Made by a program: the position numbers and the translations under genes
The notes under the pieces: model-generated
Databases searched by the model: none
What the model saw: the letters and a program-made list of their open reading frames with translations, nothing else
Told to the model about the DNA's origin: nothing
Shown: in pieces, positions 14,431-36,719 of the stretch
Layout: the number at the start of each line of letters is the position of its first letter
Numbering within the stretch: the stretch's first letter is position 1
Source of the DNA: Phyllobacteriaceae bacterium
GTDB taxonomy: Bacteria; Pseudomonadota; Alphaproteobacteria; Rhizobiales; Devosiaceae
NCBI GenBank assembly: GCA_012799265.1
Contig: JAAZLP010000073.1
Span: 1-43,315, forward strand
DNA length: 43,315 nucleotides
Direction: 5' to 3'

Positions 14431-15462
14431 TCATAGTCGTAGGAATGCCGCCGTCTCAGGATCGACGGGAATCCCCTCACGCCGGCGACGACCCATCTCC
14501 TCCCACTCCCTGTCACCCGGCGCCATCACGCGGCCGCCTTCGCGCGATGGGGAACTGCGCAAGCTCGCCAGATAAGCGGCAATGGCTGTGGCAAAGGCCT
14601 CTCTCCCGACGTATTTTTCGGGATCAATGACGAGGACGAAGTGCCCCATATTGCGCGGCGTCGAGATGTCACTCGTGCCGTACATCGGGATGAAATCGGG
14701 ATCGAGGGTGGTTCCAGTCAGAAGCGCGGAAAACAAGGTCGCCACGCCCGCCAACGCAGCCCCTTTGAACCCGAAGTCGGCGCCGCCTAGTGGCAGCAGC
14801 ATATCGGCAGCGTGCGGGTCTGAGGTTGGCTCACCATCGGGCGTAGCGGCAACGCCATCGGGAAGCGGCTTATCCAACGATCTGTGCAGCAAGACCCGAT
14901 TGAGGGGGATCGAACTGGTTGCCATGTCGAGTAGCCAGGGTCGCGAGCCTGGTACGGGCGCTGCAAAGGCCAGCGGATTGGTGCCGTGGAATTTTTGCGC
15001 GCCGTCATAGAGCGCCACCATTGAGTCCGTATTGGTTGTGACAAAGGTGACAAAACCCGCTTCCGCGCCCGCCACGGCATAAGCGCCAGCCGCCCCGAGA
15101 TGGGACGAACGCCTGACGCCCACAGCGCCCACTCCGGCTTTTTGCGCGAGCTCCATGCCCACCTCGACGGCCCTATAGGCGGCGAGATGCCCCATGCCAT
15201 CATCTCCGTCGACCATGGCGCTGCCCGCAGCGCGGTGATCGACGCTGATCTGAGGGGATTTATTAAGCCTGCCGCCGGCCAGCATCCGACAATAATGCCC
15301 AGTCAGGCGGACGCCATGGCTATCAATGCCTACAAGAGAAGCATGCATCATCGCGCGGATCGCTGCTTGCCGCGAGGCCTCACTGGTCCCTGCTTCGGCC
15401 AGCCGCGTGTCCACATGCTCACGAAGGCGAGCCTCGTCAAACCGCTGCGTCCCCCTCTCCAT
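14431..15462 (-). CDS. Ldh_2 family (malate/L-lactate/sulfolactate/ureidoglycolate-type) dehydrogenase
   Basis: Motifs GIDSHG, SSHLGA, GTNPLAFA, DMATS and LLPLGG..GFKG. Start placed at ATG 15462, just after RBS GGAGGAGG. Confidence 0.85.
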   Translation of the reverse strand: MERGTQRFDEARLREHVDTRLAEAGTSEASRQAAIRAMMHASLVGIDSHGVRLTGHYCRMLAGGRLNKSPQISVDHRAAGSAMVDGDDGMGHLAAYRAVEVGMELAQKAGVGAVGVRRSSHLGAAGAYAVAGAEAGFVTFVTTNTDSMVALYDGAQKFHGTNPLAFAAPVPGSRPWLLDMATSSIPLNRVLLHRSLDKPLPDGVAATPDGEPTSDPHAADMLLPLGGADFGFKGAALAGVATLFSALLTGTTLDPDFIPMYGTSDISTPRNMGHFVLVIDPEKYVGREAFATAIAAYLASLRSSPSREGGRVMAPGDREWEEMGRRRREGIPVDPETAAFLRL

Positions 15463-15610
15463 CACTGGCCTCCTCCATAAGCAAATGCCGCATTCGCCAT
15501 AGAGGGCCTTAGAGAAGACCGGCGCAACCCCGTCGGGCAAAACAGCACGCTTTGTCTGGCACTCTGCGGTCGAAACCTATATTGGCTCAGATGAAATCTA
15601 GGAGTTGTCC

Positions 15611-16786: not shown

Positions 16787-16810
16787 AGGGGCGCCTCGGC
16801 GCCCCTTCTC
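16787..16810. terminator. Hairpin, likely terminator between convergent fabV and epmB
   Basis: AGGGGCGC-ctcg-GCGCCCCT followed by TCTC (weak U tract). Confidence 0.6.
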
Positions 16811-17840
16811 ATTTAGGCGGATAGGCGTGTTCGCCGCCCTGCCAATCGCGCACAGTGAAATACCCATCGGTGCCGTTGAGAGAGGCCACCCGAATGTCGG
16901 CTTTGCCGTAGCCGCCCGGAATGTCGAGCACATATGTCGGCTGGCAAAGCCCGGAAATTCGTCCCCGCAGCGCCGCTACCAATGCCTGCCCCTCCTCAAT
17001 GCTCACCCGGAAATGGCTCGTGCCGGGTGCGAGATCGGGGTGATGCAGGTAGTAGGGTCGGATGCGGTTCTCGACGAAGCCGCGCATGAGTGCCGCGAGC
17101 GTTTCGACATTGTCATTGACGCCCTTGAGCAGCACCGTCTGGCTGATCAGCATGACACCGCCGTCGATGAGCCGGTCAAAGGCGTCTCTTGCTGCGCCCG
17201 TAAGCTCTCGGGGGTGATTGGCGTGAACGGCGAGATAGGTGGTCTTGCCGCTGGCTTTCAGCGCTTCGACCATGGCCGCGTCGATCCGCTCCGGCTCAAC
17301 CACCGGCACGCGGGTATGGAAGCGGACGACTTTGACATGGTCGATAGAAGCTAGCCGCTCCATGAGGTCGCGCAGGCGTCGCGGCGAGAGGACGAGCGGA
17401 TCGCCACCGGTGAGGATGACTTCCCAGATCTCAGCATGTTCGGCGATATAGCCGACGGCAGCGTCGAGCTCGGCTGATGTCAGCGTGCCGAGCCCCTGCG
17501 GTCCCACCATCTCGCGCCGGAAGCAGAACCGGCAATAGACCGGGCAGACATGCACGGCCTTGAGCAGCACACGGTCGGGATAGCGGTGAACGATGCCTTC
17601 CACCGGCGAATGGGTGAGATCGCCGATAGGATCGGCGCGCTCGTCTAGCGTCGTCGCCAGTTCGGCGGCAGAGGGGACATATTGGCGTGCAATAGGATCG
17701 TTCTGATCGTTGGGATCGATCAGGGACAGGACGGCGGTGGTCAGCGAGATGGCGTATCTTTCTGCCACTTCCTCAAGGCCGGTTGCATCCGCGACGAGAC
17801 CAGCATCAACGAGGCCCGCGATGGACTTGATGGCACTCAT
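16809..17840 (-). CDS. epmB: KamA-family radical SAM lysine 2,3-aminomutase (EF-P beta-lysylation)
   Basis: HRYPDRVLL, CPVYCRFCFRR (CxxxCxxC), ILTGGDPL, QTVLLKGVND and YVLDIPGGYGK. ATGA overlap with epmA at 17837-17840. Confidence 0.88.
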   Translation of the reverse strand: MSAIKSIAGLVDAGLVADATGLEEVAERYAISLTTAVLSLIDPNDQNDPIARQYVPSAAELATTLDERADPIGDLTHSPVEGIVHRYPDRVLLKAVHVCPVYCRFCFRREMVGPQGLGTLTSAELDAAVGYIAEHAEIWEVILTGGDPLVLSPRRLRDLMERLASIDHVKVVRFHTRVPVVEPERIDAAMVEALKASGKTTYLAVHANHPRELTGAARDAFDRLIDGGVMLISQTVLLKGVNDNVETLAALMRGFVENRIRPYYLHHPDLAPGTSHFRVSIEEGQALVAALRGRISGLCQPTYVLDIPGGYGKADIRVASLNGTDGYFTVRDWQGGEHAYPPK

Positions 17841-18895
17841 TCTGCCACCGGTGCCCAAAGAATCGCCTCAAGCCGTTGTGCCCCCGTCGCCAGCATCACC
17901 AAGCGGTCAAAGCCCAGTGCGACACCGCTTGCGTCCGGCATGAAATCCAGCGCCGCGAGGAAGTCTTCGTCTATCGGATAGCGCTCACCATAAAGGCGCG
18001 CCTTTTCCTCCATTTCCGCCTCGAAGCGTCGCCGCTGCTCGGCGGCATCGGTCAGTTCGCCAAAACCATTGGCGAGCTCGACGCCGCAGGCATAGACCTC
18101 GAACCGTTCCGACACACGGCGATCATCTGGTACGCGACGCGCTAGAGCGGCCTCGCAGGCTGGATAGCGATCAAGCACTGTGACGCGGCCATTGCCGAGA
18201 TTGGGTTCAACCCGATCCATCAGAATGAGCGAGAAGAGATAACTCCAACTGCGGTCCTCCGGCACCGACATCCCTTGCGCGAGCATCTGATCTGCAAGCA
18301 TCTCGCCGTCGGGAACACCTTCCTCATTCATTGTCGCTAGCAGGTCGATATCCGCAAACTGGCGGAAGGCGTCAGCAACGCTGACGCGCTCGGCCTCTGC
18401 GCGCGGATCACAGGTCCGGCGTCGGAATTCGAACTGTTTGATACCCGTGGTTTCAGCCGCAAGGCGGATAATGGCGAGTGTGTCGGCGATGATCGCGTCA
18501 TAGGGTTCACCCGCGCGATACCATTCGAGCATGGTGAACTCCGGGTGATGCAGCGCGGATCGTTCGCGATTGCGCCAGACGTGCTGAAGACTGGCGATAC
18601 GCTCTTCGCCTGCGGCCAGCAGCTTTTTCATCGTGAATTCGGGCGAGGTATGAAAGTACATTGCCTGCCCTGCCCCATCGTTGCCAATCATGGTGGTGGC
18701 AAAGGCGTGCAGGTGTGTCTCGTTGCCCGGCGAGCGCTGGAGGCCCGGCGGGTCGACCACGAGGAAGTCCCGCTCGGCCATCCAGAGACGAATTGCTGCG
18801 TCGATCCGGGCACGTGCGAGCAGTCCCTGCCGTAGGTCCGCATGGCGCTCAGGGTGCCACCAAGGCGTCGATCCGGTCATTTCTGGCGTGCTCAT
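17837..18895 (-). CDS. epmA: EF-P lysine aminoacylase (LysRS2 paralog)
   Basis: HTSPEFTMKKLLAAG, HHPEFTMLEWYR, ERFEVY..GVELANGFGELTD and GVALGFDRL. Adjacent to efp. Confidence 0.93.
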   Translation of the reverse strand: MSTPEMTGSTPWWHPERHADLRQGLLARARIDAAIRLWMAERDFLVVDPPGLQRSPGNETHLHAFATTMIGNDGAGQAMYFHTSPEFTMKKLLAAGEERIASLQHVWRNRERSALHHPEFTMLEWYRAGEPYDAIIADTLAIIRLAAETTGIKQFEFRRRTCDPRAEAERVSVADAFRQFADIDLLATMNEEGVPDGEMLADQMLAQGMSVPEDRSWSYLFSLILMDRVEPNLGNGRVTVLDRYPACEAALARRVPDDRRVSERFEVYACGVELANGFGELTDAAEQRRRFEAEMEEKARLYGERYPIDEDFLAALDFMPDASGVALGFDRLVMLATGAQRLEAILWAPVAE

Positions 18896-19026
18896 GGGCG
18901 GTTTCTTTAGGGACCGGTCTGGCGAAAAGGCGAGGAATGCTGTATCGGGCGCTCCACAACGGATTTTATCGGCGCCCGGACGGCACTGCCTCTAGACCGC
19001 GCCTGTGATTGGAACAAGGAAGAATT

Positions 19027-19596
19027 ATGGTCAAGGTCATCGCCTCGTCCCTGCGCAAAGGCAATGTCGTCGAACAGGACGGCAACCTGCACGTTATCCT
19101 CACCGCTGAAAACGTTCACCCGGGCAAGGGCAACTCGGTGACCAACGTCACCATGCGCCGCATCTCCGATGGCGTGAAGGTCATCGGCCGCTGGCGTACC
19201 GTGGAAATGGTCGAAAAGGCCGATGTTGATGATCGTGAATACGATTACCTCTACTCGGACGGCGAAGGCCACCATTTCATGGAGCCGGAAAGCTACGAGC
19301 AGATCACCGTTTCCGATGACATCATTGGCGACCAGAAGGCCTACCTCACCGATGGCATGAAGGTTCACCTGATGACGCATGAAGGCATTGCGCTCTCGAT
19401 GGAACTGCCGCAGCGTATGACCTTCGAAATCGTCGAAACCGAACCGGTCGTGAAGGGCCAGACAGCTTCCTCGTCCTACAAGCCAGCTGTTCTCAACAAT
19501 GGCCTGCGCGTCATGGTCCCCCCGCACATCGACGCTGGCACCCGCATTGTCATCCTGACGGAAGACAATTCCTACGTAGAACGCGCCAAGGACTGA
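19027..19596 (+). CDS. efp: Translation elongation factor P
   Basis: PGKG modification loop, [12 protein letters not shown] and [20 protein letters not shown] at 19027. Confidence 0.96.
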
Positions 19597-27306: not shown

Positions 27307-27613
27307 GATGAAGTCCTCCCAAAAGCCGCCGGGCGTTTTCGCCTCCGACGGTACGAGGACGCTACTAAAAGTACTATTATATGTAAAGTGGGTTTGATTT
27401 GTCGCGTGGGTCCAACGGAACACAGAGGAAATGGCGTTCTGGATCAAACACTTATGACTTTACTTGTGCCGACACGCCTTAGGATTTTTGAAACGATTTC
27501 ATTTAATACCCAGCGAGATTGATCGACAATAAGACGCGGTGTTCATCGGCACGAACACAAAAAGAGCACCGCCTAGTAGCAAGCGGTGCTCTCCAAAATC
27601 GGTGCGACAAAAG

Positions 27614-28564
27614 TCAGGCAGAAACTGTTTCGCGGAAGTGCGCCAGAACCTTTTCCGCATCAACGGCGGTGCAGATCGTCTGGTGTGGGCGACCGTTCCA
27701 GGCCGGATCACCGCCCTTGCGCGTTTCGGGCATCTGGGCCGTCTGGCCAACAGCGAGGCCGTCGCGGATGGTAACGATCGGGCCCTTGCGGGTTTCGAAC
27801 CATTCCGGGAACAGCGCATAGGTGACGGCAAGGAGGTCGTGGCCGACCACGCCCGGGAAACCCATGACATTGTTATAGAAGTTGGCATAGTGCTCGCACA
27901 TCTGGCGGAGCAGTTCGCCATTTTCGCCTACATCGCGCGCCAGAGCGGCGAGGTAGTCCTTGTCGAGAAGGATATCGTGCGTCACGTCGAGGCCGACCGC
28001 AACGACTGGCCATTCCGCCGCGAACATTTCGTCCGCAGCAACCGGATCGCCATGGATGTTCGCCTCGGCAAGCGGGGTAACGTTGCCGCTGCGGCCCTTA
28101 TAGCCAAAGGCACCACCCATGATGATGACCTGCTTGACCTTCTTGGCGATGGAAGGATCCTGACGCAGCGCCAGGCCCAGATTGGTCATGCGCCCGACGG
28201 CGATAATGGTGACTTCGCCCGGATGCGCATTGACGGTGTCGATGATGAACTGGTGAGCGGTACCCGCCAGCAGGCCGCTTTCGTCAACAGCCGGAATATC
28301 GATTTCGCCCAGACCGTTGATGCCATGGACGATGGCCGGCTCTTCCTTGTGCACACCATCGAGCGTTTCGCCAGCGCCATGGATAACGGGCGCAGCAATG
28401 CCGAATTTTTCGCGAAGGAACAGCGCATTGCGCGTCGTCGTGTCGATGCTGGCATTACCAACTACGGTGGTGATGCCGAGCAGTTCGATCTGGGGCAGCT
28501 TGCTCAGATAGAGCAACGCCATTGCGTCATCGATGCCTGGATCGGTGTCGAATATAACCTTCAT
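27614..28564 (-). CDS. Nucleoside hydrolase (inosine/uridine-preferring family)
   Basis: Ca-binding motif DTDPGIDDA, plus VHGINGLG, IMGGAF, AEANIHGDP, GLDVT and HD. Confidence 0.92.
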   Translation of the reverse strand: MKVIFDTDPGIDDAMALLYLSKLPQIELLGITTVVGNASIDTTTRNALFLREKFGIAAPVIHGAGETLDGVHKEEPAIVHGINGLGEIDIPAVDESGLLAGTAHQFIIDTVNAHPGEVTIIAVGRMTNLGLALRQDPSIAKKVKQVIIMGGAFGYKGRSGNVTPLAEANIHGDPVAADEMFAAEWPVVAVGLDVTHDILLDKDYLAALARDVGENGELLRQMCEHYANFYNNVMGFPGVVGHDLLAVTYALFPEWFETRKGPIVTIRDGLAVGQTAQMPETRKGGDPAWNGRPHQTICTAVDAEKVLAHFRETVSA

Positions 28565-28606
28565 GGGAATGCCCTATCGCTGTGGTCAGATTGTCATTCG
28601 CAGATT

Positions 28607-28622
28607 TTGACCAAACGGTCAA
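28607..28622. promoter_or_regulatory. RutR-type operator, copy 1 (TTGACCAAACGGTCAA)
   Basis: Perfect TTGACC-N4-GGTCAA palindrome, extending to TTTGACC...GGTCAAA, about 43 bp upstream of the nucleoside hydrolase start. Confidence 0.8.
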
Positions 28623-28698
28623 AGGTCGCGCGGAACCTTCGGTGCGTGTAAGGCGTGTTGCGTGCACCTTGCAAGCATGCTCGGCAGACCCATATTTT

Positions 28699-28715
28699 AG
28701 TTACAAATCGTAACT
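28699..28715. promoter_or_regulatory. Palindromic operator candidate AGTTAC-N5-GTAACT
   Basis: Perfect 6-5-6 inverted repeat immediately before the RBS (GAGGT) of the LLM/FAD-oxidase fusion. Confidence 0.55.
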
Positions 28716-28727
28716 GAGGTACAAAAC

Positions 28728-31004
28728 GTGACTGACTACGGACACGACCTGATCTTCGGCACGTTCTCGACACCCGCCGCTCAGCAGCATGACGCCGTGA
28801 TCGCGCTTGCGCAGCATGCCGAGCAGGTTGGCCTCGACATGGTGACCATCCAGGACCATCCATACAATCCCGGCTTCCTTGATGCCTACACCCTCCTCAC
28901 CTGGATCGCTGCGAGCACAAGCAAGCTTCGCGTATCGGCGAATGTGACGAACCTGCCGCTGCGGTTTGCGCCGGTGCTGGCCAAAATGGCAGCGAGCATC
29001 GACATTCTTTCAGGTGGACGTTTTGAGATGGGGCTTGGGGCTGGTGGCTTTGCCGAGGCCATCAAGTCCATGGGCGGCCCGAGCCTGACAACCGGTGAAA
29101 GCATTGAAGCGGCTAGCGAAGCCATGGATCTTATGCGCGGCATCTGGAGGGGCGACGGCCAGATGTTCAAGCTGCACGGCAAGCACTACGACGTGCCCGG
29201 CGTCCGCTCCGGCCCGCAACCCGCTCATGACATCGGAATATGGTTGGGCGCCTATAAGCCACGCATCCTCCGGTTGACCGGCACGAAGGCAGATGGCTGG
29301 CTGCCTAGCCTCGGCTATCTCAAGCTGGAGGACGTGGCGGAATCGCACCGGATTATCGACGAGGCCGCACTGACTGCTGGCCGTGACCCGCGAGAAATCC
29401 GCCGCCTGCTCAACATTTCCAGCCTGGCTCTTTCGGACACCAATGAAGGCTTCTTGAAGGGCCCTCGCGAGCAGCTGATCAATCAATTGCAGGAGCTCAT
29501 CTTCGAGTATGGCTTTAGCGGCTTCTTCATCAGCGGTGATGACCCGACCATCATGGAAGTGGTGGGGAAGGATATCGCACCGGCAGTTCGTAAGGCAGTG
29601 AGCAAGGCCCGTACCGTCAGTGGGACGGTACCCGCGCCGAGCGCAGCAGATCGGCAGCGACAGGCAGCTCGCCTGCCCGACATAAACTATGAGGCCATCC
29701 CAGACGACCTCAAGGCAAGCGCCGTCGAGCCCGGGGACCGCGACTATGACAATGTCCGTCATTCCTACATTTATGCAGGCAGCCCCGGCCTTGTCCTGAT
29801 GCCGCGCTCAGCAAATAAAGTCTCGGAAGCCGTGCTTTATGCGCGAGCCCAGAACAAGCCGATCGCCGTGCGCAGCGGTGGGCATGGGATTGCAGGGCAT
29901 TCGACCAATGATGGTGGGATCGTCATTGATCTGCGGCACCTCAATCGCATTGAAGTCCTGGACCGAACAAAAAATCTGGTGCGCATTGAAGCTGGTGCAC
30001 GCTGGGGCCAAGTTGCCGAAGAACTTGAGAAGTGCAAGCTGGCGCTTAGCTCGGGTGATTATGGCGGCGTCGGCGTTGGCGGCCTCGCAACAACGGGCGG
30101 CTTGGGTTATTTCGCCCGCAAATACGGCCTGACCATCGACCGCATTCGCGCAGCAGAAATAGTTCTGGTGGACGGTAACATCGTGCGCGCTGATGCGGAC
30201 ACCAATCCCGATCTTTTTTGGGCGATCCGTGGCGCCGGCGCAAACTTTGGCGTCGTCACCTCCTTTGAGTTTGAGGCATACGAGATCGGCAATGTGATCC
30301 GCGCCATCCAGGTGTTTGACCTCAGCGACGCGGAGACATTTCTGGTCAATTGGGGCCGGATCATCAAGGCAGCGCCCCGCGAGCTGACTAGCTTCCTTTC
30401 CGTGTTCTCGAGCCGCAAGGCGCCGATGGCACAAGCCATTTCCGTCTTCGCTGGCGATGACACCGAGGCCGCAACAAAGGCGCTGACACCGCTGCTCGAC
30501 GCCGGTCCGGTCCTGCAGCAGCAGGCGCATATTGCCCCCTACCCTACGCTCGTGCCGTGGCAGGAAGGTCCGCATGGCGGCAGCACAATGGGCGTTAGCC
30601 ATTCAGGATTGATCGAGCACATCACCCCAGAGATTGCCGGACACATCGCTTCGATCGTACGTTCCCGCAGCGCCGAAATGGTGCAGTTGAGGGCGGCCGG
30701 CGGTGCGGTCAACGACATGCCGGCAGACGCGACGGCCTATGCGCATCGGACACAGAATTTTTCACTACTCGCTGCGTCCTACGACAATCCGGCAGCACTC
30801 AACGCGCAGTGGGACCAGCTGAAGCCGCTGCTCAAGGGCATGTACGCGGCTTTTGAAACAGACATGTCGCCAGAAATCCTGCTGGCAGCCTATCCGGAGC
30901 CGACGCTGAGCCGTCTTCGTCAGCTCAAGGCGAAATATGATCCGGACAACGTCTTCAACACCAGTTTCAACATTCTTCCGGCTGCGGATAACGTGGTTGC
31001 CTGA
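28728..31004 (+). CDS. Fusion of an LLM-family oxidoreductase and an FAD-linked oxidase (VAO/berberine-bridge type)
   Basis: N-terminal LLM domain (QDHPY, ASIDILSGGRFEMGLGAG, ADGWLPS). C-terminal FAD-binding domain with RSGGHG, DLFWAIRGAGANFGVVT and the BBE tail RLRQLKAKYDPDNVF. Confidence 0.85.
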   Translation: MTDYGHDLIFGTFSTPAAQQHDAVIALAQHAEQVGLDMVTIQDHPYNPGFLDAYTLLTWIAASTSKLRVSANVTNLPLRFAPVLAKMAASIDILSGGRFEMGLGAGGFAEAIKSMGGPSLTTGESIEAASEAMDLMRGIWRGDGQMFKLHGKHYDVPGVRSGPQPAHDIGIWLGAYKPRILRLTGTKADGWLPSLGYLKLEDVAESHRIIDEAALTAGRDPREIRRLLNISSLALSDTNEGFLKGPREQLINQLQELIFEYGFSGFFISGDDPTIMEVVGKDIAPAVRKAVSKARTVSGTVPAPSAADRQRQAARLPDINYEAIPDDLKASAVEPGDRDYDNVRHSYIYAGSPGLVLMPRSANKVSEAVLYARAQNKPIAVRSGGHGIAGHSTNDGGIVIDLRHLNRIEVLDRTKNLVRIEAGARWGQVAEELEKCKLALSSGDYGGVGVGGLATTGGLGYFARKYGLTIDRIRAAEIVLVDGNIVRADADTNPDLFWAIRGAGANFGVVTSFEFEAYEIGNVIRAIQVFDLSDAETFLVNWGRIIKAAPRELTSFLSVFSSRKAPMAQAISVFAGDDTEAATKALTPLLDAGPVLQQQAHIAPYPTLVPWQEGPHGGSTMGVSHSGLIEHITPEIAGHIASIVRSRSAEMVQLRAAGGAVNDMPADATAYAHRTQNFSLLAASYDNPAALNAQWDQLKPLLKGMYAAFETDMSPEILLAAYPEPTLSRLRQLKAKYDPDNVFNTSFNILPAADNVVA

Positions 31005-31040
31005 GAGGATCGACAAAGACCGCTTGACGAATGTCGGTTT

Positions 31041-31056
31041 TTGACCAAACGATCAA
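31041..31056. promoter_or_regulatory. RutR-type operator, copy 2 (TTGACCAAACGATCAA)
   Basis: 15/16 identical to copy 1. Lies 24 bp upstream of fgd and downstream of a TTGACG -35-like hexamer (31024-31029), so it overlaps the expected -10 region. Confidence 0.78.
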
Positions 31057-31080
31057 ATATTCGCAGTCCGGGAGGGGTCC

Positions 31081-32082
31081 ATGCGCTTTGGCTTTAAGGC
31101 ATCCGCCGAACAGTTCGGCCCCAACGAACTGCTGAAGTTCGCCGTCGAGGCAGAGGACGCCGGGTTCGACTCGGTGTTCGTATCGGACCATTTCCAACCG
31201 TGGAAGCACACGGATGGTCATGCGCCGTTTGCGCCGGGCTGGATGTCTGCCGTGCTGGCGCGCACCGAACGCGTCATTCTTGGCACCTCGGTGCTGACGC
31301 CCACCTTTCGCCTCCACCCCACAGTTGTGGCTCATGCCTTCGGTACAATGGGTGCCATGTTCCCCGGGCGCGTCATTCTGGGCGTGGGTACAGGCGAGAG
31401 CCTCAACGAAGTGCCGGCCACGGGCATGGAATGGCCGGAGCTGAAAGAGCGTTCAGCGCGGCTGCGCGAAGCCGTCAAACTCATCCGCCAGCTGTGGTCC
31501 GAAGACCGGGTGACCTTCGAGGGCGAGTATTACAAGACATCCAACGCAACGATCTATGACAAGCCGGCTGAGCCTGTGCCGATCTATATCGCTGCCGGTG
31601 GACCGTTGAATGCCAAATATGCCGGACGCGCGGGCGATGGGTTTATCTGCACCTCCGGCAAGGGCGCTGATCTATACACCAAGGAACTGCTGCCCAATGT
31701 CGAGATCGGACGCTCCGAGAGCGACCGGCAGGAAAAACGCTTCGAACGCATGATCGAAGTGAAGGTGTCATTCGACACGGACTATGATCGCGCGCTCAAT
31801 GACACGCGCAACTGGGCAGCGCTCTCGCTTTCTGCTGAAGAAAAGCACTCCGTGCAGGACCCGGAGGAAATGGAACGCCTGGCCGAGGCTTTGCCCATTG
31901 AGCGAGTGGCCAAACGCTGGATCGTCTCTTCCGACCCGGATGAGCATGTGGCGGCGATCAAGACCTATATGGATTATGGCTTCGACCATCTGGTTTTCCA
32001 CGCGCCAGGGACCGACCAACCGCGCTTCCTCAACCTCTATTCTCGCGAAATCCTGCCGCGCCTGCGCAAGATCACCGGCTAA
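31081..32082 (+). CDS. fgd: F420-dependent glucose-6-phosphate dehydrogenase
   Basis: [58 protein letters not shown] and HLVFHAPG closely follow mycobacterial FGD1. Confidence 0.9.
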
Positions 32083-32100
32083 TTCTGGGAGCCTCGGACT

Positions 32101-32913
32101 ATGACACCGCGCTTTTCTGTCTGGGGCATTACCGGCATTCCGGAAGTTGAGAAGGGCGACGACCTCGTTGCACTGATCGCTGAGGCAGCATTTGCGCAAG
32201 CGCAAGCTGAACCCGAATTCGCCTTGCAGAATGGCGACATTCTCGTGGTGACCTCCAAGATCGTCTCGAAGTCCGAAGGCATGCAAGTGCCGGCTGCGGA
32301 ACGCGAGCGCGCCATTGCCGAGGACACCGTTCGTGTCGTTGCGGAACGCGTTCACCCCGGGGGGGTGTTCCGAATTGTCGAGACGCGTCAGGGCCTCGTC
32401 ATGGCGGCTGCAGGGATTGACATGTCGAACGTCCCAGAGGGAACTGCGCTGCGGCTGCCACTCGATCCGGACGCTTCTGCTCGGGCGCTTTGCGCAGGTC
32501 TGCGGGAGATGCTGGGCATCGAGATTGGCGTAATCATCACAGACACAATCGGCCGGGCATGGAGAGTTGGGCAGACGGACATGGCCATCGGCGCCGCTGG
32601 TCTGCAACTCACGGATGATCTTCGAGGCGCTGTGGATGCCAATGGCCGGCCTTTGCATGTCACCCAGGCCGTGATCGCCGATGAAATCGCCGGCGCCGCT
32701 GACCTGGTCAAAGGCAAGACGAGTAAAATTCCAGTGGCCGTTGTCCGCGGCCTTGGCCGCTATGTCCGTGACCTGGGTGCGCCTGGAGCACGGACGCTGA
32801 CACGCACCGGCGATGATGACATGTTCCGCTTCGGCAGCGCAGAGGCTTATCGGATTGGCTATGAAGCTGCACTGGCAGAAATGAAAAACAAGCAGCGGCA
32901 GGATCAGGACTGA
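32101..32913 (+). CDS. cofE: Coenzyme F420-0:L-glutamate ligase (single-domain CofE)
   Basis: [76 protein letters not shown] and PVAVVRG. No FbiB nitroreductase domain. Confidence 0.92.
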
Positions 32914-32915
32914 CC

Positions 32916-33839
32916 ATGCGCTTTCTCGCCTCTCTGGCCCTTGTCGTCGCGCTCGCAATGCCTGCCTCGGCAGAAACGACTTATCCCCTTGCGATCGATA
33001 ACTGCGGACAGACCGTCACGATTTCTTCTGCACCACATCGTGTGGTGGCAATCAAATCGACAGCGACGGAACTGCTTCTCTCCCTTGGCTTGAGGGACAG
33101 GATTGTCGGCGTGGGCTTTCAGGACGGCCCGCTGCCGCCGGCGCTAGAAACAGAGCTACCCATTCTCTCTGACAAACTGCCGAGCCAGGAAGTGGTACTC
33201 GAGACCGAACCTGACCTCGTCTATGGTGGCTGGGAGAGTAATTTCTCTGGCGCCGGCGCCGGTGAGCGGCCGACGCTGCAACACATGGGCGTCGCAACCT
33301 ATGTCGCGCCTTCAGCCTGTCGCTCAGTTAAACCGCCGAGCCTGACGACTGACGCTCTCTTCGCGGAAATGCGTGAGATCGGCGCCATCTTTGACGTCGG
33401 GGTAAACGCGGAAGCGCTCGTCGGAGAACAACAGGCTCTCCTCGCCAGTGTGACACCCGATAGCCGCGGCCTGAGCGCTGTGTGGTATTCCTCGGCAACC
33501 AAGACGCCTTATGTCGGCGCGGGCAACAATGCCCCGGCGCTGATCATGCACGCTCTTGGATTGCAAAACATCTTTGGCGACATCGATGAAGGATGGACCT
33601 CCACCTCATGGGAGGCGATCGTCGATGCCAATCCTGACGTCATCATTCTCGTCGACGCGACGTGGAACTCCGCAGAGCAGAAAAAGCAGCTCCTTGCTGA
33701 AAACCCGATCACGCGTGAGATGGATGCGGTGAAGAACCAGCGCTATCTCACCCTGCCCTTCCCGGCATCGGAAGCGGGAGTCCGGACAATCCCCGCGATA
33801 GTGGACCTAGCCGAACAACTGGCACGGATCCGTTTCTGA
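32916..33839 (+). CDS. Putative F420-0 ABC transporter substrate-binding protein (BtuF/FecB fold)
   Basis: YPLAIDNCG, RVVAIKST, EPDLVYGGWESNFSGAGAGER, TPYVGAG and SWEAIVDANPDVI resemble the recalled F420-0 SBP clade. Starts 2 bp after cofE. Confidence 0.78.
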   Translation: MRFLASLALVVALAMPASAETTYPLAIDNCGQTVTISSAPHRVVAIKSTATELLLSLGLRDRIVGVGFQDGPLPPALETELPILSDKLPSQEVVLETEPDLVYGGWESNFSGAGAGERPTLQHMGVATYVAPSACRSVKPPSLTTDALFAEMREIGAIFDVGVNAEALVGEQQALLASVTPDSRGLSAVWYSSATKTPYVGAGNNAPALIMHALGLQNIFGDIDEGWTSTSWEAIVDANPDVIILVDATWNSAEQKKQLLAENPITREMDAVKNQRYLTLPFPASEAGVRTIPAIVDLAEQLARIRF

Positions 33840-34841
33840 ATGAGACCAGCCAGCCTCTCTGCGCTGACCGTGCTTTTGTTGGCCTCGGCGCTGATTGCGG
33901 TGACACTGGGGCCAGCGGAAATCACAGCTGGCGACGTGTGGTTGACCATCCTCCACCACCTTGGCCTCATGGCTGAACCTTCTCTTTCCCGTCTGCAGGA
34001 TGCCATTGTATGGGAACTGCGCCTGCCGCGCGTTCTCGTTGCCATGGGGGTTGGTGCAGGGCTCGCGCTTGCTGGCGCGGTGATGCAGGCGCTGACCCGC
34101 AATCCCCTGGCAGACCCATACCTCCTGGGTCTCTCGTCCGGCGCAGCACTGGGCGCCGTTATCTTCCTTCTCTTGGGCGCAGTGTTGCTGATGCCATTGG
34201 GCGCGTTTTTCGGCAGCACTGGCGCACTGGCTCTGGCTCTGCTGATCGCGCAACTGCTCGGCGGGGCGACGCCATCGCGCGCTATCCTTGCGGGCATCTG
34301 CATTTCAGCGCTGGCAACAGCGGCGACGTCGTTCCTGATTTTCTGGTCTGCAACAGGGGACAGCTATCGCGAAATTCTGAGCTGGCTGATGGGATCGCTG
34401 GCCGGTTCGCTCTGGTCGGATGTGGGCCTGGTCTTTGCGGCACTTCTGCTCTGCGTGCCGATCATCCTCTTCTTTGGGCGAGCGCTAGACGCCTTTGCCT
34501 TCGGCGACACTTCGGCGGCCGCCTTGGGCATTGATGTGCCACGCCTGCGCTGGACCATGCTGGGCGCTTCGGCGCTACTCACAGGCATCATGGTCGCCGT
34601 AGGGGGCGCCATCGGCTTTGTCGGCCTCGTCGTGCCCCATGTTGTTCGCCTTGCCATAGGCACATCTCATCGGGCCCTTCTGCCCCACGCCATGATGGTC
34701 GGTGCAATCTTCATGCTCTGGGCAGACACGCTGGCCCGAACCCTGTTTGATCCGCGCGAACTGCCGGTGGGAATCATCACCGCGCTCATCGGCGCACCGA
34801 TTTTCCTCCTGGTCCTGCTCCGCTATCGGAGGATCACGTGA
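33840..34841 (+). CDS. Putative F420-0 ABC transporter permease (FecCD/BtuC family)
   Basis: IVWELRLPR, QALTRNPLADPYLLGLSSGA, GAIGFVGL and ELPVGIITALIGAP. Abuts the SBP gene. Confidence 0.82.
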   Translation: MRPASLSALTVLLLASALIAVTLGPAEITAGDVWLTILHHLGLMAEPSLSRLQDAIVWELRLPRVLVAMGVGAGLALAGAVMQALTRNPLADPYLLGLSSGAALGAVIFLLLGAVLLMPLGAFFGSTGALALALLIAQLLGGATPSRAILAGICISALATAATSFLIFWSATGDSYREILSWLMGSLAGSLWSDVGLVFAALLLCVPIILFFGRALDAFAFGDTSAAALGIDVPRLRWTMLGASALLTGIMVAVGGAIGFVGLVVPHVVRLAIGTSHRALLPHAMMVGAIFMLWADTLARTLFDPRELPVGIITALIGAPIFLLVLLRYRRIT

Positions 34842-35605
34842 GCCTCTCGGTTTCAGATGTCTCGGTGACGCGCGGCGGTAAGCCAATTCTATCCAACGTT
34901 GGCTTCACCGCACCGAAAGGGGCCATCACTGGCCTTCTCGGGCCGAACGGCGCTGGAAAGTCCACCCTGCTGCACACGCTGCTCGGCCTGATGCCGACCA
35001 GTGGAAGCGCGGTTTTCGAAAGGGTGGACCTGTTATCGATGCCCAGACGAGAGCGCGCGCGCATGGCGGCATTGGTGGAGCAATCAGTATCAACCGAGGA
35101 ACGCCTCAGCGTGAGGGACGTCGTGGCGCTGGGCCGCATCCCCTATCAGTCAGCTCTCAGCGGAGCAGATGACCCGGCTGGCTCAGAAATAATCAATCAA
35201 GCGCTGGCCGACGTTGGCATGCAGGAGTTTGCAGACCGGCGCATCCAGTCGCTTTCTGGAGGCGAGCAGCAGCGCGTGCACATTGCGCGCGCACTTGCGC
35301 AACAGCCGCGGCTCCTCCTGCTGGATGAGCCGACCAGTCATCTCGACATCCGCGCACAACTCGAACTGACGGCACTACTGCGGCGCAAGGCAGTCAGTGG
35401 CATGACAGTGGTCGTTGCAATCCACGACCTCAACCTGGCGGCCCGCTACTGCGACCATCTTGTGGTGCTGGACCGGGGCCGCCTCTCAGCCGAAGGGGCA
35501 CCAAATCAAGTGCTGACAGCGCGGATGCTGGAAGCTGTTTATGGCGTGCGGGCCCGGCTGCTGGATGACCCGCAATCGGACCGGGCCACCATAGTCTACG
35601 ACTAG
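34838..35605 (+). CDS. Putative F420-0 ABC transporter ATP-binding protein (FecE/BtuD-like)
   Basis: GPNGAGKST, LSGGEQQR, LLLDEPTSHLD and HDLNLAARYCD. GTGA overlap with the permease. Confidence 0.85.
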   Translation: MSLSVSDVSVTRGGKPILSNVGFTAPKGAITGLLGPNGAGKSTLLHTLLGLMPTSGSAVFERVDLLSMPRRERARMAALVEQSVSTEERLSVRDVVALGRIPYQSALSGADDPAGSEIINQALADVGMQEFADRRIQSLSGGEQQRVHIARALAQQPRLLLLDEPTSHLDIRAQLELTALLRRKAVSGMTVVVAIHDLNLAARYCDHLVVLDRGRLSAEGAPNQVLTARMLEAVYGVRARLLDDPQSDRATIVYD

Positions 35606-35639
35606 CCAGCGCCCTGAACTCGTCTTCGGCGAAAGCGGA

Positions 35640-35685
35640 TTGACAAGTCTTCAGTCTCACCCCAAAAATTTGATCGGCTGGTCAA
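35640..35685 (+). promoter_or_regulatory. Sigma70-like promoter with RutR-type operator, copy 3 (TTGATCGGCTGGTCAA at 35670-35685)
   Basis: TTGACA at 35640-35645, an A-rich -10-like element near 35664-35669, then the palindrome TTTGATC-ggct-GGTCAAA over the expected start site. Confidence 0.75.
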
Positions 35686-35717
35686 AAATTCCAGCAACAA
35701 GGGAGCGGTGAGGGACC

Positions 35718-36719
35718 ATGGAATTCGGCATTACCTTCAAGGGTTTTATTGAGGCTGAACGGGCGCGCTATCTGGTACGCGCTGCTGAATATGCCGGGTT
35801 CTCTTATTGCTGGTTCTACGACAGCCATATTCTATGGCGCGACTGCTATGCCGCCATCGCCATGTGCATGGAGCACACCACGGATATGCGGTTCGGCCCG
35901 CTGGTGACTAATCCCGACGTGCGCGACTGGTCAGTGGCGGCATCGATCTTTGGCTCGCTCTCCAAACAGTCCGGCGGTCGCTTCGATCTGGCAGTTGGCC
36001 GCGGCGATAGCTCCATGCGCGTCATGGGCAAGAAGCCGGCAACGCTCAAACGCGTTGCAGAATTCATCGACAAGACCAAGGCAATGGTGCGGGGCAAAGA
36101 AGTCACCTATGGCGAAATTCCAGCTGCAGTAAAATTCCCTTGGGCGGTTGGCCACGACATGCCGAGCTGGATCGCAGCCTATGGCCCACTGGCCCTTAAG
36201 ACCGCGGGCGAGAGCGCTGATGGCGTCGTACTGCAGATCGCCGATCCGGGACTTTGCAAGTGGTTCACCGACCAATGTATTGAAGCCGGCAAGGCTGTTG
36301 GCAAGGATATGAGCAAGTATCGGTCCATGGCCGCTGCCCCTGCCTATTTCGGGGACCGCAAGCGTGCGATCGAGAAGGTGAAGTGGTTCCCCGCAATGGT
36401 CGGCAATCACGTGGCCGATATCGTCGAAAAATATGGTTCGAACAGCGACAAGGTGCCAGCCAGCCTGACCTCTTACATCGAGAAGCGCCGCGGCTATGAT
36501 TATTCAAAGCACGGCCAGGCGGATAACCCCTACCTCGATTTCATCACGGACGATGTGGTGGAAAGCTTCTGCGTGCTGGGTGAACCCGACGAGCACATCA
36601 GCAAGATCCGCGAGCTTGAAGCGGCAGGCGTCACGCAGTTCAACATCTATCTCGACAGCGGCGACGAGGAAGAAATCATCGCCAACTACGGGCGCCACGT
36701 TATTCCGGCGTTCGCCTGA
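35718..36719 (+). CDS. Mer-like F420-dependent LLM oxidoreductase (CPS_4043/TIGR03842-type)
   Basis: AGFSYCWFYDSHILWRD, FGPLVTNP..RDWSVAAS, GRGDSS.RVMGKKP, ADGVVLQIADP, WFPAMVGNHVAD, GYDYSKHG and GVTQFNIYL. Family assignment is from recall. Confidence 0.78.
   Translation: MEFGITFKGFIEAERARYLVRAAEYAGFSYCWFYDSHILWRDCYAAIAMCMEHTTDMRFGPLVTNPDVRDWSVAASIFGSLSKQSGGRFDLAVGRGDSSMRVMGKKPATLKRVAEFIDKTKAMVRGKEVTYGEIPAAVKFPWAVGHDMPSWIAAYGPLALKTAGESADGVVLQIADPGLCKWFTDQCIEAGKAVGKDMSKYRSMAAAPAYFGDRKRAIEKVKWFPAMVGNHVADIVEKYGSNSDKVPASLTSYIEKRRGYDYSKHGQADNPYLDFITDDVVESFCVLGEPDEHISKIRELEAAGVTQFNIYLDSGDEEEIIANYGRHVIPAFA

What the first reader, a model, noticed from the sequence alone, without database searches (positions are those of the whole stretch)
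35718..36719. Orphan Mer-like LLM as candidate F420H2-dependent uracil/thymine reductase
Seen: a separately promoted LLM gene with its own RutR-type box, directly after the F420 supply operon. Recalled knowledge: the CPS_4043/TIGR03842 family is predicted to be F420-dependent, has no assigned function, and often lies near dihydropyrimidinase genes. Inference: it performs the first reductive step (uracil to 5,6-dihydrouracil) or acts on a modified base, and it is the main consumer that justifies F420 import.
Basis: inference. Interest (0 to 1): 0.78.

Follow-up and report, generated by a model that had tools for sequence, protein, structure and literature searches.

The report
Likely F420-dependent uracil reductase in Devosia
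This bacterium has the genes for breaking down uracil but no detectable gene for the usual first enzyme, and an uncharacterised enzyme that takes that enzyme's place across many genomes likely does the step with the cofactor F420, which these bacteria appear to import rather than make; no assay has shown this yet.

Summary
35718-36719 encodes a TIGR03842 protein (488 bits; cut-off 295). It has a conserved -35 element and RutR-type box and follows fgd-cofE-ABC importer genes.

This 86%-complete genome has a hydA/carbamoylase/aminotransferase/MMSDH/RutR-like cluster elsewhere but no preA. Among 67 good-quality genus genomes with hydA, 58 have only this gene, 8 only preA, 1 both, 0 neither; the F420-reducing fgd follows the same split. 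In 121 Halomonadaceae genomes, 10 have this gene, 39 have preA, none both, and all 49 have hydA. Outside Devosia the gene often closes a cofGHDCE-fno operon beside pyrimidine-catabolic genes. HydA partners of the two enzymes interleave on one tree.

Best reading (0.8): an F420H2-dependent uracil/thymine reductase unrelated to PreTA. Cofactor, substrate and direction are inferred, not assayed. Against: 6 of 80 carriers also keep preA. Ten literature searches found no paper stating this role. This scan proposed the same idea at least nine times before on other DNA; my tests here add within-genus swapping and dependence on imported cofactor.

The parts
35718..36719 (+). TIGR03842 luciferase-like hydride transferase; proposed F420H2-dependent uracil/thymine reductase
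   Evidence: 488.1 bits vs cut-off 295.45; model closest to Mer, Z 35.1, rmsd 2.6, 313 aligned
35640..35669 (+). promoter-like site (TTGACA, 18 nt, AAAAAT)
   Evidence: TTGACA seen in 27 of 29 genus leaders
35670..35685 (.). RutR-type box directly behind the -10 element
   Evidence: 29 of 29 genus loci; 0 of 240 control windows
31041..31056 (.). RutR-type box before the F420 supply operon
   Evidence: a box is at the matching place in 7 of 7 full-length Devosia/Pelagibacterium loci examined
31081..32082 (+). [quoted passage not shown]
   Evidence: TIGR03554 507 vs 420
32101..32913 (+). cofE, F420-0:glutamate ligase
   Evidence: TIGR01916 222.4 vs 180.65
32916..33839 (+). putative F420-0 ABC transporter, binding protein
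   Evidence: TIGR03868 390.4 vs 392.4
33840..34841 (+). putative F420-0 ABC transporter, permease
   Evidence: TIGR03869 437.9 vs 437.35
34838..35605 (+). putative F420-0 ABC transporter, ATPase
   Evidence: TIGR03873 329.5 vs 372.4, best family
28607..28622 (.). RutR-type box between the divergent nucleoside hydrolase and LLM-oxidase fusion genes
   Evidence: 1 mismatch
28728..31004 (+). LLM domain fused to a berberine-bridge-type FAD oxidase; accessory, possible second F420 user
   Evidence: full-length or nearly so in 12 of 90 relatives, in 0 of 11 preA-bearing ones
27614..28564 (-). nucleoside hydrolase (IU family); would release bases from nucleosides
   Evidence: PF01156 267 bits; Rih/UriH models all below cut-off

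Best explanation
The gene encodes a Mer-like TIM-barrel protein of family TIGR03842 that likely reduces uracil (and probably thymine) to the 5,6-dihydro base by direct hydride transfer from reduced coenzyme F420, taking the place of the dihydropyrimidine dehydrogenase PreTA that is not found in this genome. Proposed cycle: uracil lifts repression by the RutR-like regulator at the boxes before this gene, the F420 operon and the catabolic cluster (inferred from E. coli RutR). The ABC system imports a deazaflavin precursor, CofE adds glutamates, and Fgd reduces F420 with glucose-6-phosphate (inferred from family membership and absence of cofD/cofH). The enzyme puts a hydride on C6 of the pyrimidine and a proton on C5 (inferred from chemistry; the acid residue is not identified; His37, His231, Tyr262 and His265 are invariant in 105 close homologues). 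HydA, the carbamoylase, the omega-aminotransferase and MMSDH on contig C473 then give CO2, ammonia, beta-alanine and acetyl-CoA (genes shown, flux inferred). Shown here: family, fold, boxes, gene content and distribution. Not shown: cofactor binding, substrate, direction, import.
For: (1) Own genome: hydA over cut-off, with carbamoylase, MMSDH, AptA-type aminotransferase, ABC transporter and RutR-like gene in one cluster; preA best 41.9 bits vs 335; no tblastn hit with a relative's PreA. (2) Genus, 90 relatives: this gene only 71, preA only 10, both 1, neither 8. Among the 67 that are at least 90% complete, at most 5% contaminated and hydA-positive: 58/8/1/0. (3) Halomonadaceae, 121 genomes: 10 vs 39, overlap 0, all 49 hydA-positive. 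(4) 80 GTDB loci (Alpha-, Beta-, Gammaproteobacteria, Chloroflexota and others): within 10 kb cofE 51, fno 49, cofD 43, hydA 32, carbamoylase 29, RutR-like 27, preA/preT 0. Unbiased clustering of neighbours gave mainly cof, fno, pyrimidine-catabolic, transporter and transhydrogenase genes. hydA in 48 of the 50 genomes tested; preA over cut-off in 6 of 80. (5) 80 metagenome loci of a 41%-identical clade: nitrilase-type hydrolase 48, MMSDH 41, hydA 38, preA/preT 0. (6) HydA partners interleave: the preA label needs 8 changes, at least 5 forced by well-supported branches, and HydA of three preA-type genus members is 93-94% identical to this genome's (quick tree). (7) Two different F420-reducing enzymes (Fgd here, Fno elsewhere, 12 loci with a transhydrogenase beta gene) travel with the gene, which fits a consumer of F420H2. 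(8) The fold is closest to F420 enzymes: Mer Z about 35, RutA Z 24.5. Asp97 and Gln173 match Mer positions that contact the pterin's pyrimidine ring and F420. (9) Precedent: LLHTs LxmJ and Fht add hydride to a C=C bond or an aromatic ring; F420 is at -340 mV (PMC8498797).
Against: No biochemistry exists; all support is by association. 6 of 80 carriers also have intact preA. Five of these hold 2-3 hydA-family genes, and in the five examined the two reductases sit in separate clusters, which could mean redundancy or a second substrate. One more genus genome has a 130-residue PreA fragment (51% identical, 2.6-kb contig) that the E<=1e-80 threshold missed. The own genome is 85.8% complete, so its lack of preA and cof genes alone proves little. 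Genomes are related, so the Fisher values overstate. 11 Halomonadaceae genomes pass the hydA cut-off with neither reductase; the 3 of them placed on the tree fall in a separate hydantoinase clade, the other 8 were judged by score only. The RutR-like protein is below both RutR cut-offs (225.9 vs 368; 208.6 vs 230). No ligand could be modelled.
Confidence: 0.8

Rival explanations
1. It is an F420H2-dependent ring reductase, but its main substrate is another base: a modified pyrimidine (such as 5-hydroxymethyluracil), a nucleoside, or a purine such as 2,8-dioxopurine (yanthine).
For: 6 of 80 carriers keep preA as well, mostly in a second cluster. PMC12507026 predicts a luciferase-family F420 yanthine reductase in Chloroflexota uric-acid clusters. 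A nucleoside hydrolase shares the regulon in this window.
Against: Near-perfect complementarity with preA among hydA-bearing genomes in two unrelated families. The same HydA orthologues serve both reductases. No cluster resembling SsnA or xanthine dehydrogenase stood out among the 45 commonest neighbour clusters, judged by N-terminal sequence and 11 annotated representatives.
Confidence: 0.12
2. It uses F420 but serves another step or the other direction: oxidation of dihydrouracil to uracil for salvage, or reduction of malonate semialdehyde.
For: F420 enzymes can be bidirectional (PMC8498797). Direction is not shown by any search.
Against: It is co-regulated with F420-reducing Fgd or Fno. It is exclusive with PreA rather than with MMSDH, which lies beside it in 41 of 80 metagenome loci. 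The F420 potential of -340 mV lies below the uracil couple (about -0.26 V, recalled).
Confidence: 0.04
3. It is an FMNH2/O2-dependent monooxygenase like RutA that opens the uracil ring oxidatively; the link to F420 genes is incidental.
For: RutA is also a luciferase-like enzyme under RutR control; the folds are homologous (Z 24.5).
Against: It is not among the RutA-model matches in its own genome. Mer scores Z 35. It closes a cof-fno operon in many genera (cofD within 10 kb in 43 of 80 loci). Its partner HydA needs a reduced ring.
Confidence: 0.03
4. It is a true Mer-type methylene-tetrahydropterin reductase of one-carbon metabolism.
For: Mer gives the best structural and PDB sequence matches (27-28% identity).
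Against: TIGR03555 124.8 vs 348.7. The catalytic Glu6 of jMer (E6Q leaves 0.4% kcat, PMC11094777) is Thr or Cys in 105 of 105 homologues. The gene context is pyrimidine catabolism.
Confidence: 0.01

Closest known systems
Dihydropyrimidine dehydrogenase (PydA, PreT-PreA, ferredoxin-dependent PydAc) of the reductive Pyd pathway
   Same: Proposed reaction and pathway slot; same downstream HydA orthologues, carbamoylase, aminotransferase and MMSDH; RutR-type boxes before both.
   Different: No homology. A single 333-aa luciferase-like barrel with no FAD, FMN or Fe-S domains; the proposed donor is F420H2 by direct hydride transfer, not NAD(P)H or ferredoxin through flavins (PMC7332683).
TIGR03842 (F420_CPS_4043) family
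   Same: Member by score; named only as a predicted F420-dependent LLM oxidoreductase.
   Different: No substrate in the model's name; 0 papers in the library hold TIGR03842 or CPS_4043.
Mer, F420-dependent methylene-H4MPT reductase (8QPL, 1Z69)
   Same: Closest fold (Z about 35); Val63, Asp97 and Gln173 match jMer Val62, Asp96 and the carboxamide at 178.
   Different: Catalytic Glu6 absent; below the family cut-off; the context is pyrimidine catabolism.
F420H2-dependent LLHT reductases LxmJ (dehydroalanine) and Fht (picrate)
   Same: Same superfamily and the same type of chemistry (hydride to an activated C=C bond or ring), per PMC8498797.
   Different: Different substrates; sequence relationship not tested here.
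Predicted luciferase-family F420 yanthine reductase of Chloroflexota (PMC12507026)
   Same: Same logic in print: an F420-type luciferase-family enzyme stands where a DPD-like reductase is missing.
   Different: Purine (uric acid) pathway with SsnA, and also untested. Whether it belongs to TIGR03842 was not checked; the supplement was not read.
RutA pyrimidine monooxygenase
   Same: Luciferase-like fold, uracil substrate, RutR control.
   Different: FMN/O2-dependent, oxidative; this protein does not match TIGR03612.

Membership tests
TIGR03842 / CPS_4043 | HMM score over the curated cut-off, full length | tested here: met
   488.1 vs 295.45, residues 2-332
F420-dependent luciferase-like hydride transferases | Fold nearest to F420-binding members rather than FMN monooxygenases | tested here: met
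   The top 15 entries are all F420 enzymes (Z 35.1 to 28.0); FMN enzymes start at Z 26.8
F420-dependent luciferase-like hydride transferases | Non-prolyl cis-peptide after beta3 with a small hydrophobic residue | tested here: inconclusive
   Val63 is invariant and aligns with jMer Val62; cis geometry not inspected
F420-dependent luciferase-like hydride transferases | Source of F420 and of F420H2 encoded in the genome | tested here: met
   cofE, fgd and a putative importer are adjacent; cof-fno operon in other genera. Import itself is untested.
F420-dependent luciferase-like hydride transferases | Binds and turns over F420/F420H2 | not testable with these tools
   Needs an assay; F420 is not an offered ligand
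Mer (TIGR03555) | Score over cut-off | tested here: not met
   124.8 vs 348.7
Mer (TIGR03555) | Catalytic glutamate at the end of beta1 (jMer Glu6) | tested here: not met
   Thr or Cys in 105 of 105
PydA / PreTA dihydropyrimidine dehydrogenase | Homology: FMN, FAD/NAD(P)H and Fe-S domains | tested here: not met
   Only PF00296; it works like, but is not, a DPD
PydA / PreTA dihydropyrimidine dehydrogenase | Fills step 1 of the Pyd pathway (with hydA, instead of preA) | tested here: met
   58/8/1/0 in the genus; 10/39/0 in Halomonadaceae. Genomic evidence only.
PydA / PreTA dihydropyrimidine dehydrogenase | Converts uracil to 5,6-dihydrouracil | not testable with these tools
   Needs an assay
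RutA (TIGR03612) | Score over cut-off | tested here: not met
   0 of 5 genomes have a RutA over cut-off; this gene is not among the matches
RutR regulon | Conserved 16-bp palindrome at the promoter | tested here: met
RutR regulon | RutR orthologue in the genome | tested here: inconclusive
   RutR-like gene divergent from the pyd cluster with a box in front, but below both cut-offs

The most novel reading that the evidence does not exclude
Most Devosia have traded the flavin/iron-sulfur PreTA for an F420 enzyme and cannot make the cofactor (cofD in 0 of 90 genomes), so F420 is a cross-fed vitamin that they scavenge from neighbours for essentially one reaction. In species with panC but no panD, this genome among them, that reaction would also supply beta-alanine for coenzyme A, as uracil breakdown does in Rhizobium etli (PMC7142369). 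Growth or uracil use of such strains would then depend on deazaflavin made by other microbes.
Probability: 0.3. Interest if true: 0.87.

Novelty: new variant of a known kind. Interest (0 to 1): 0.72.

Why it matters
If true, it names a new, non-homologous enzyme class for the first step of the most widespread pyrimidine degradation pathway and gives a function to a large orphan family (5645 clusters at E<=1e-40). It also answers an open question stated in the 2021 F420 review (PMC8498797): why Proteobacteria and Chloroflexi make F420. In many Proteobacteria sampled here the whole cof-fno operon ends in this gene, sits behind a RutR-type box and lies beside pyrimidine-catabolic genes. Devosia offers a clean test, since close relatives use either route, and a test of F420 import, which is so far only a database prediction. 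A small, metal-free uracil reductase could also be useful in biocatalysis.

Tried and rejected
Literature: 10 searches found no paper assigning uracil reduction to an F420 enzyme; the library lacks most subscription papers. PMC3662644 (passages) added nothing on this family.

Genome-wide RutR-box scan: 43 sites with up to 2 mismatches, many inside genes, so not used as a regulon map. A box before a cytochrome P450 on C210 recurs in only 1 of 4 relatives that have the gene: not counted.

RNA: one metatranscriptome library has contigs over parts of the gene, another has none there. Contigs cannot separate RNA from DNA, so there is no expression claim. A 9.4-kb contig of an unlabelled run spans 27400-36578, but it may be the source sample.

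The metagenome scan with alignment A4 failed for lack of a conserved stretch and was redone with one protein. The careful HydA tree did not finish; the quick tree was used. No complex prediction was run, because neither F420 nor uracil is an offered ligand. Mer and RutA identities were considered and rejected. The fragmented own genome was not used alone as proof of absence.

Full report
Observation. The ORF at 35718-36719 (333 aa) is a full-length member of TIGR03842 (488.1 bits, cut-off 295.45); Mer models score about 125 bits. Upstream lie fgd, cofE and the three genes of the putative F420-0 ABC importer. A RutR-type palindrome occurs three times in the window (28607, 31041, 35670) against 0.08 expected. 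The third lies directly behind a promoter-like site. It is present in 29 of 29 same-genus loci and 0 of 240 control windows, and the spacer between TTGACA and the box varies while both elements are kept. In several relatives fgd follows the gene instead of preceding it (coordinates), which fits a promoter of its own. E. coli RutR binds a 16-bp palindrome and is released by uracil, hardly by thymine (PMC2952853, passages). Named records with the same module are Devosia, and I take the window to be from that genus.

Own genome (85.8% complete). Contig C473 carries an ABC transporter, hydA (600 bits, over cut-off), a carbamoylase, MMSDH, an AptA-type aminotransferase and a divergent RutR-like gene with a box in front. 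preA is not found (41.9 vs 335 bits; no tblastn hit), nor are cofD, cofH, cofG, cofC or fno, nor RutA. In relative G050 the same cluster has preT-preA about 2 kb beyond the regulator, behind a box. So this genome has steps 2-5 of the reductive pathway and no known step 1.

Genus test. Of 90 relatives, 70 have the gene over cut-off, 2 in pieces at contig ends, and 18 lack it; 11 have preA and 83 hydA. Tally: this gene only 71, preA only 10, both 1, neither 8. Of those 8, six are under 90% complete and two lack hydA. Among the 67 good-quality hydA-positive genomes the tally is 58, 8, 1, 0 (lists typed). fgd follows this gene: 74 of 90 have it, and the only mismatches are two genomes 55% and 83% complete. 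cofD is found in 0 of 90, so the genus appears to depend on import. The LLM-oxidase fusion at 28728-31004 is full-length or nearly so in 12 of 90 and in none of the preA genomes. This gene is therefore the constant partner of the F420 module. Caveat: one search used E<=1e-80 and missed a short PreA fragment of foreign type (51% identity, 2.6-kb contig) in one carrier, so 'both' may be 2. Among 60 genomes of other families of the order, 18 have preA over cut-off and 1 has this gene (G114), with no overlap. In G114 a single 16-kb stretch holds box-carbamoylase-hydA-ABC and box-cofG-cofH-cofD-cofC-cofE-fno-TIGR03842.

Independent family. In 121 Halomonadaceae genomes, 10 have the gene and 39 have preA, with no overlap; all 49 have hydA, and they are the 49 best-scoring hydA genomes. 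Eleven more pass the hydA cut-off with neither reductase. That score split was seen after the fact; three of the eleven were put on the tree and fall in a separate hydantoinase clade.

Wider context. 80 GTDB loci were examined, the best 80 of 588 confirmed from 10 of 64 parts of the collection. Within 10 kb they show cofE 51, fno 49, cofD 43, cofH 38, hydA 32, carbamoylase 29, RutR-like 27, nitrilase-type hydrolase 11, fgd 6, preA/preT 0. Unbiased clustering of all neighbours added an NCS1-like permease (13 loci) and transhydrogenase genes (12-13 loci), which would feed NADPH to Fno. Genome-wide, hydA is present in 48 of the 50 tested and preA over cut-off in 6 of 80 (completeness not given). 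In 80 metagenome loci of a clade 41% identical to this protein, 47 of them 6 kb or longer, the neighbours were a nitrilase-type hydrolase 48, MMSDH 41, hydA 38, preA/preT 0.

Same product. On a quick maximum-likelihood tree of 83 HydA-type proteins, partners of preA and of this gene are interleaved. The preA label needs 8 changes, at least 5 forced by branches with SH-aLRT of 95 or more, and HydA of G021, G050 and G053 (preA type) is 93-94% identical to this genome's. The tree used 9 of 10 preA-only and 33 of about 72 LLM-type genus genomes. The simplest reading is that both enzymes feed HydA the same dihydropyrimidine and that the swap happened several times.

Against. Six carriers keep preA. 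In the five examined the two reductases lie in separate clusters, mostly each with its own hydA, carbamoylase or regulator. The two never share a cluster, which fits one slot per cluster, but a second substrate is possible. PMC12507026 (passages) predicts an F420 luciferase-family reductase for 2,8-dioxopurine in Chloroflexota, so related enzymes may take other bases. Everything here is association, and related genomes inflate the statistics.

Structure and mechanism. The AlphaFold model (pLDDT 89) is a TIM barrel. The top 15 matches are F420 enzymes, led by Mer (Z 35.1, rmsd 2.6, 313 residues); RutA scores 24.5. By the alignment and PMC11094777 (passages), jMer Val62 and Asp96 and the carboxamide at 178 (printed Gln178; Asn by my count of the chain) correspond to Val63, Asp97 and Gln173, which are kept in 105, 105 and 104 of 105 homologues. 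The catalytic Glu6 is Thr or Cys. So it is not a Mer, but it keeps residues that in Mer touch F420 and a pyrimidine ring. F420 is an obligate hydride carrier at -340 mV, and LLHT enzymes reduce dehydroalanine and picrate (PMC8498797, passages and section 23). The uracil couple lies near -0.26 V (recalled), so hydride transfer to C6 would be downhill. I put the reductase reading at 0.8.

Comparison with what is known. The DPDs described in PMC7332683 (abstract, introduction and part of methods) are flavin/iron-sulfur enzymes using NAD(P)H or ferredoxin. This protein would work like them but is no member. Ten searches found no paper with this assignment. The library omits most subscription journals; the original TIGRFAM and F420 survey papers (Selengut and Haft 2010; Ney 2017) were not read, and no supplements were opened, so an unseen mention is possible. 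The review names the role of F420 in Proteobacteria and Chloroflexi as open. This scan reached the same idea in nine earlier findings on other DNA, and one earlier finding described the Devosia salvage operon. My reading was set down before the look-up, and those notes are not counted as evidence.

Extension. panD was found in 0 of 5 and panC in 3 of 5 genus genomes, this one included. In Rhizobium etli, which lacks panD, uracil breakdown supplies beta-alanine (PMC7142369, passages). A link from imported F420 to coenzyme A is therefore possible, but the aminotransferase could also make beta-alanine, and 2 of 5 genomes lack panC.

Verdict. A real feature with a well-supported but unassayed function: a new variant of a known pathway, with an unrelated enzyme in step 1. 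Interest 0.72.

Noticed in passing
window 28728-31004 (+): LLM domain fused to a berberine-bridge-type FAD oxidase behind a RutR-type box. Full-length or nearly so in 12 of 90 relatives, all with the F420 module, none with preA; in other relatives it lies away from the module. Function unknown.
   Followed up: partly
window 27614-28564 (-): IU-family nucleoside hydrolase divergent from the fusion gene, sharing the 28607 box; likely feeds bases to the pathway.
   Followed up: partly
L096 12333-15274 and 11-12 other GTDB loci: NAD(P) transhydrogenase genes next to the cof-fno-TIGR03842 operon, mostly in Gammaproteobacteria; would supply NADPH for F420 reduction.
   Followed up: partly
L252/L101, L253, L254/L102, L255, L256-L259: Leisingera, Cribrihabitans, Aquamicrobium and Paraburkholderia genomes hold two pyrimidine clusters, one with preTA and one with the F420 module: good strains for testing a second substrate.
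   Followed up: partly
L076 4255-10917 (G041): In the one genus genome with both reductases, preT-preA lies apart from hydA, next to genes that by N-terminal sequence look like panB, type III pantothenate kinase, coaBC and panC (not scanned).
   Followed up: no
L025 1365-2662 (G000:C210): RutR-type box overlapping the start region of a cytochrome P450 gene; a box recurs in 1 of 4 relatives with the gene.
   Followed up: partly
L136 (Pelagibacterium record): cofE, importer and TIGR03842 with boxes, but no fgd or fno within 10 kb; the source of F420H2 there is open.
   Followed up: no
window 16809-19596: efp with epmA and a lysine-2,3-aminomutase-like gene; ordinary EF-P modification locus.
   Followed up: no
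window 14431-15540 (-): Ldh_2-family dehydrogenase, best match ureidoglycolate dehydrogenase but below cut-off; no RutR-type box near it.
   Followed up: no
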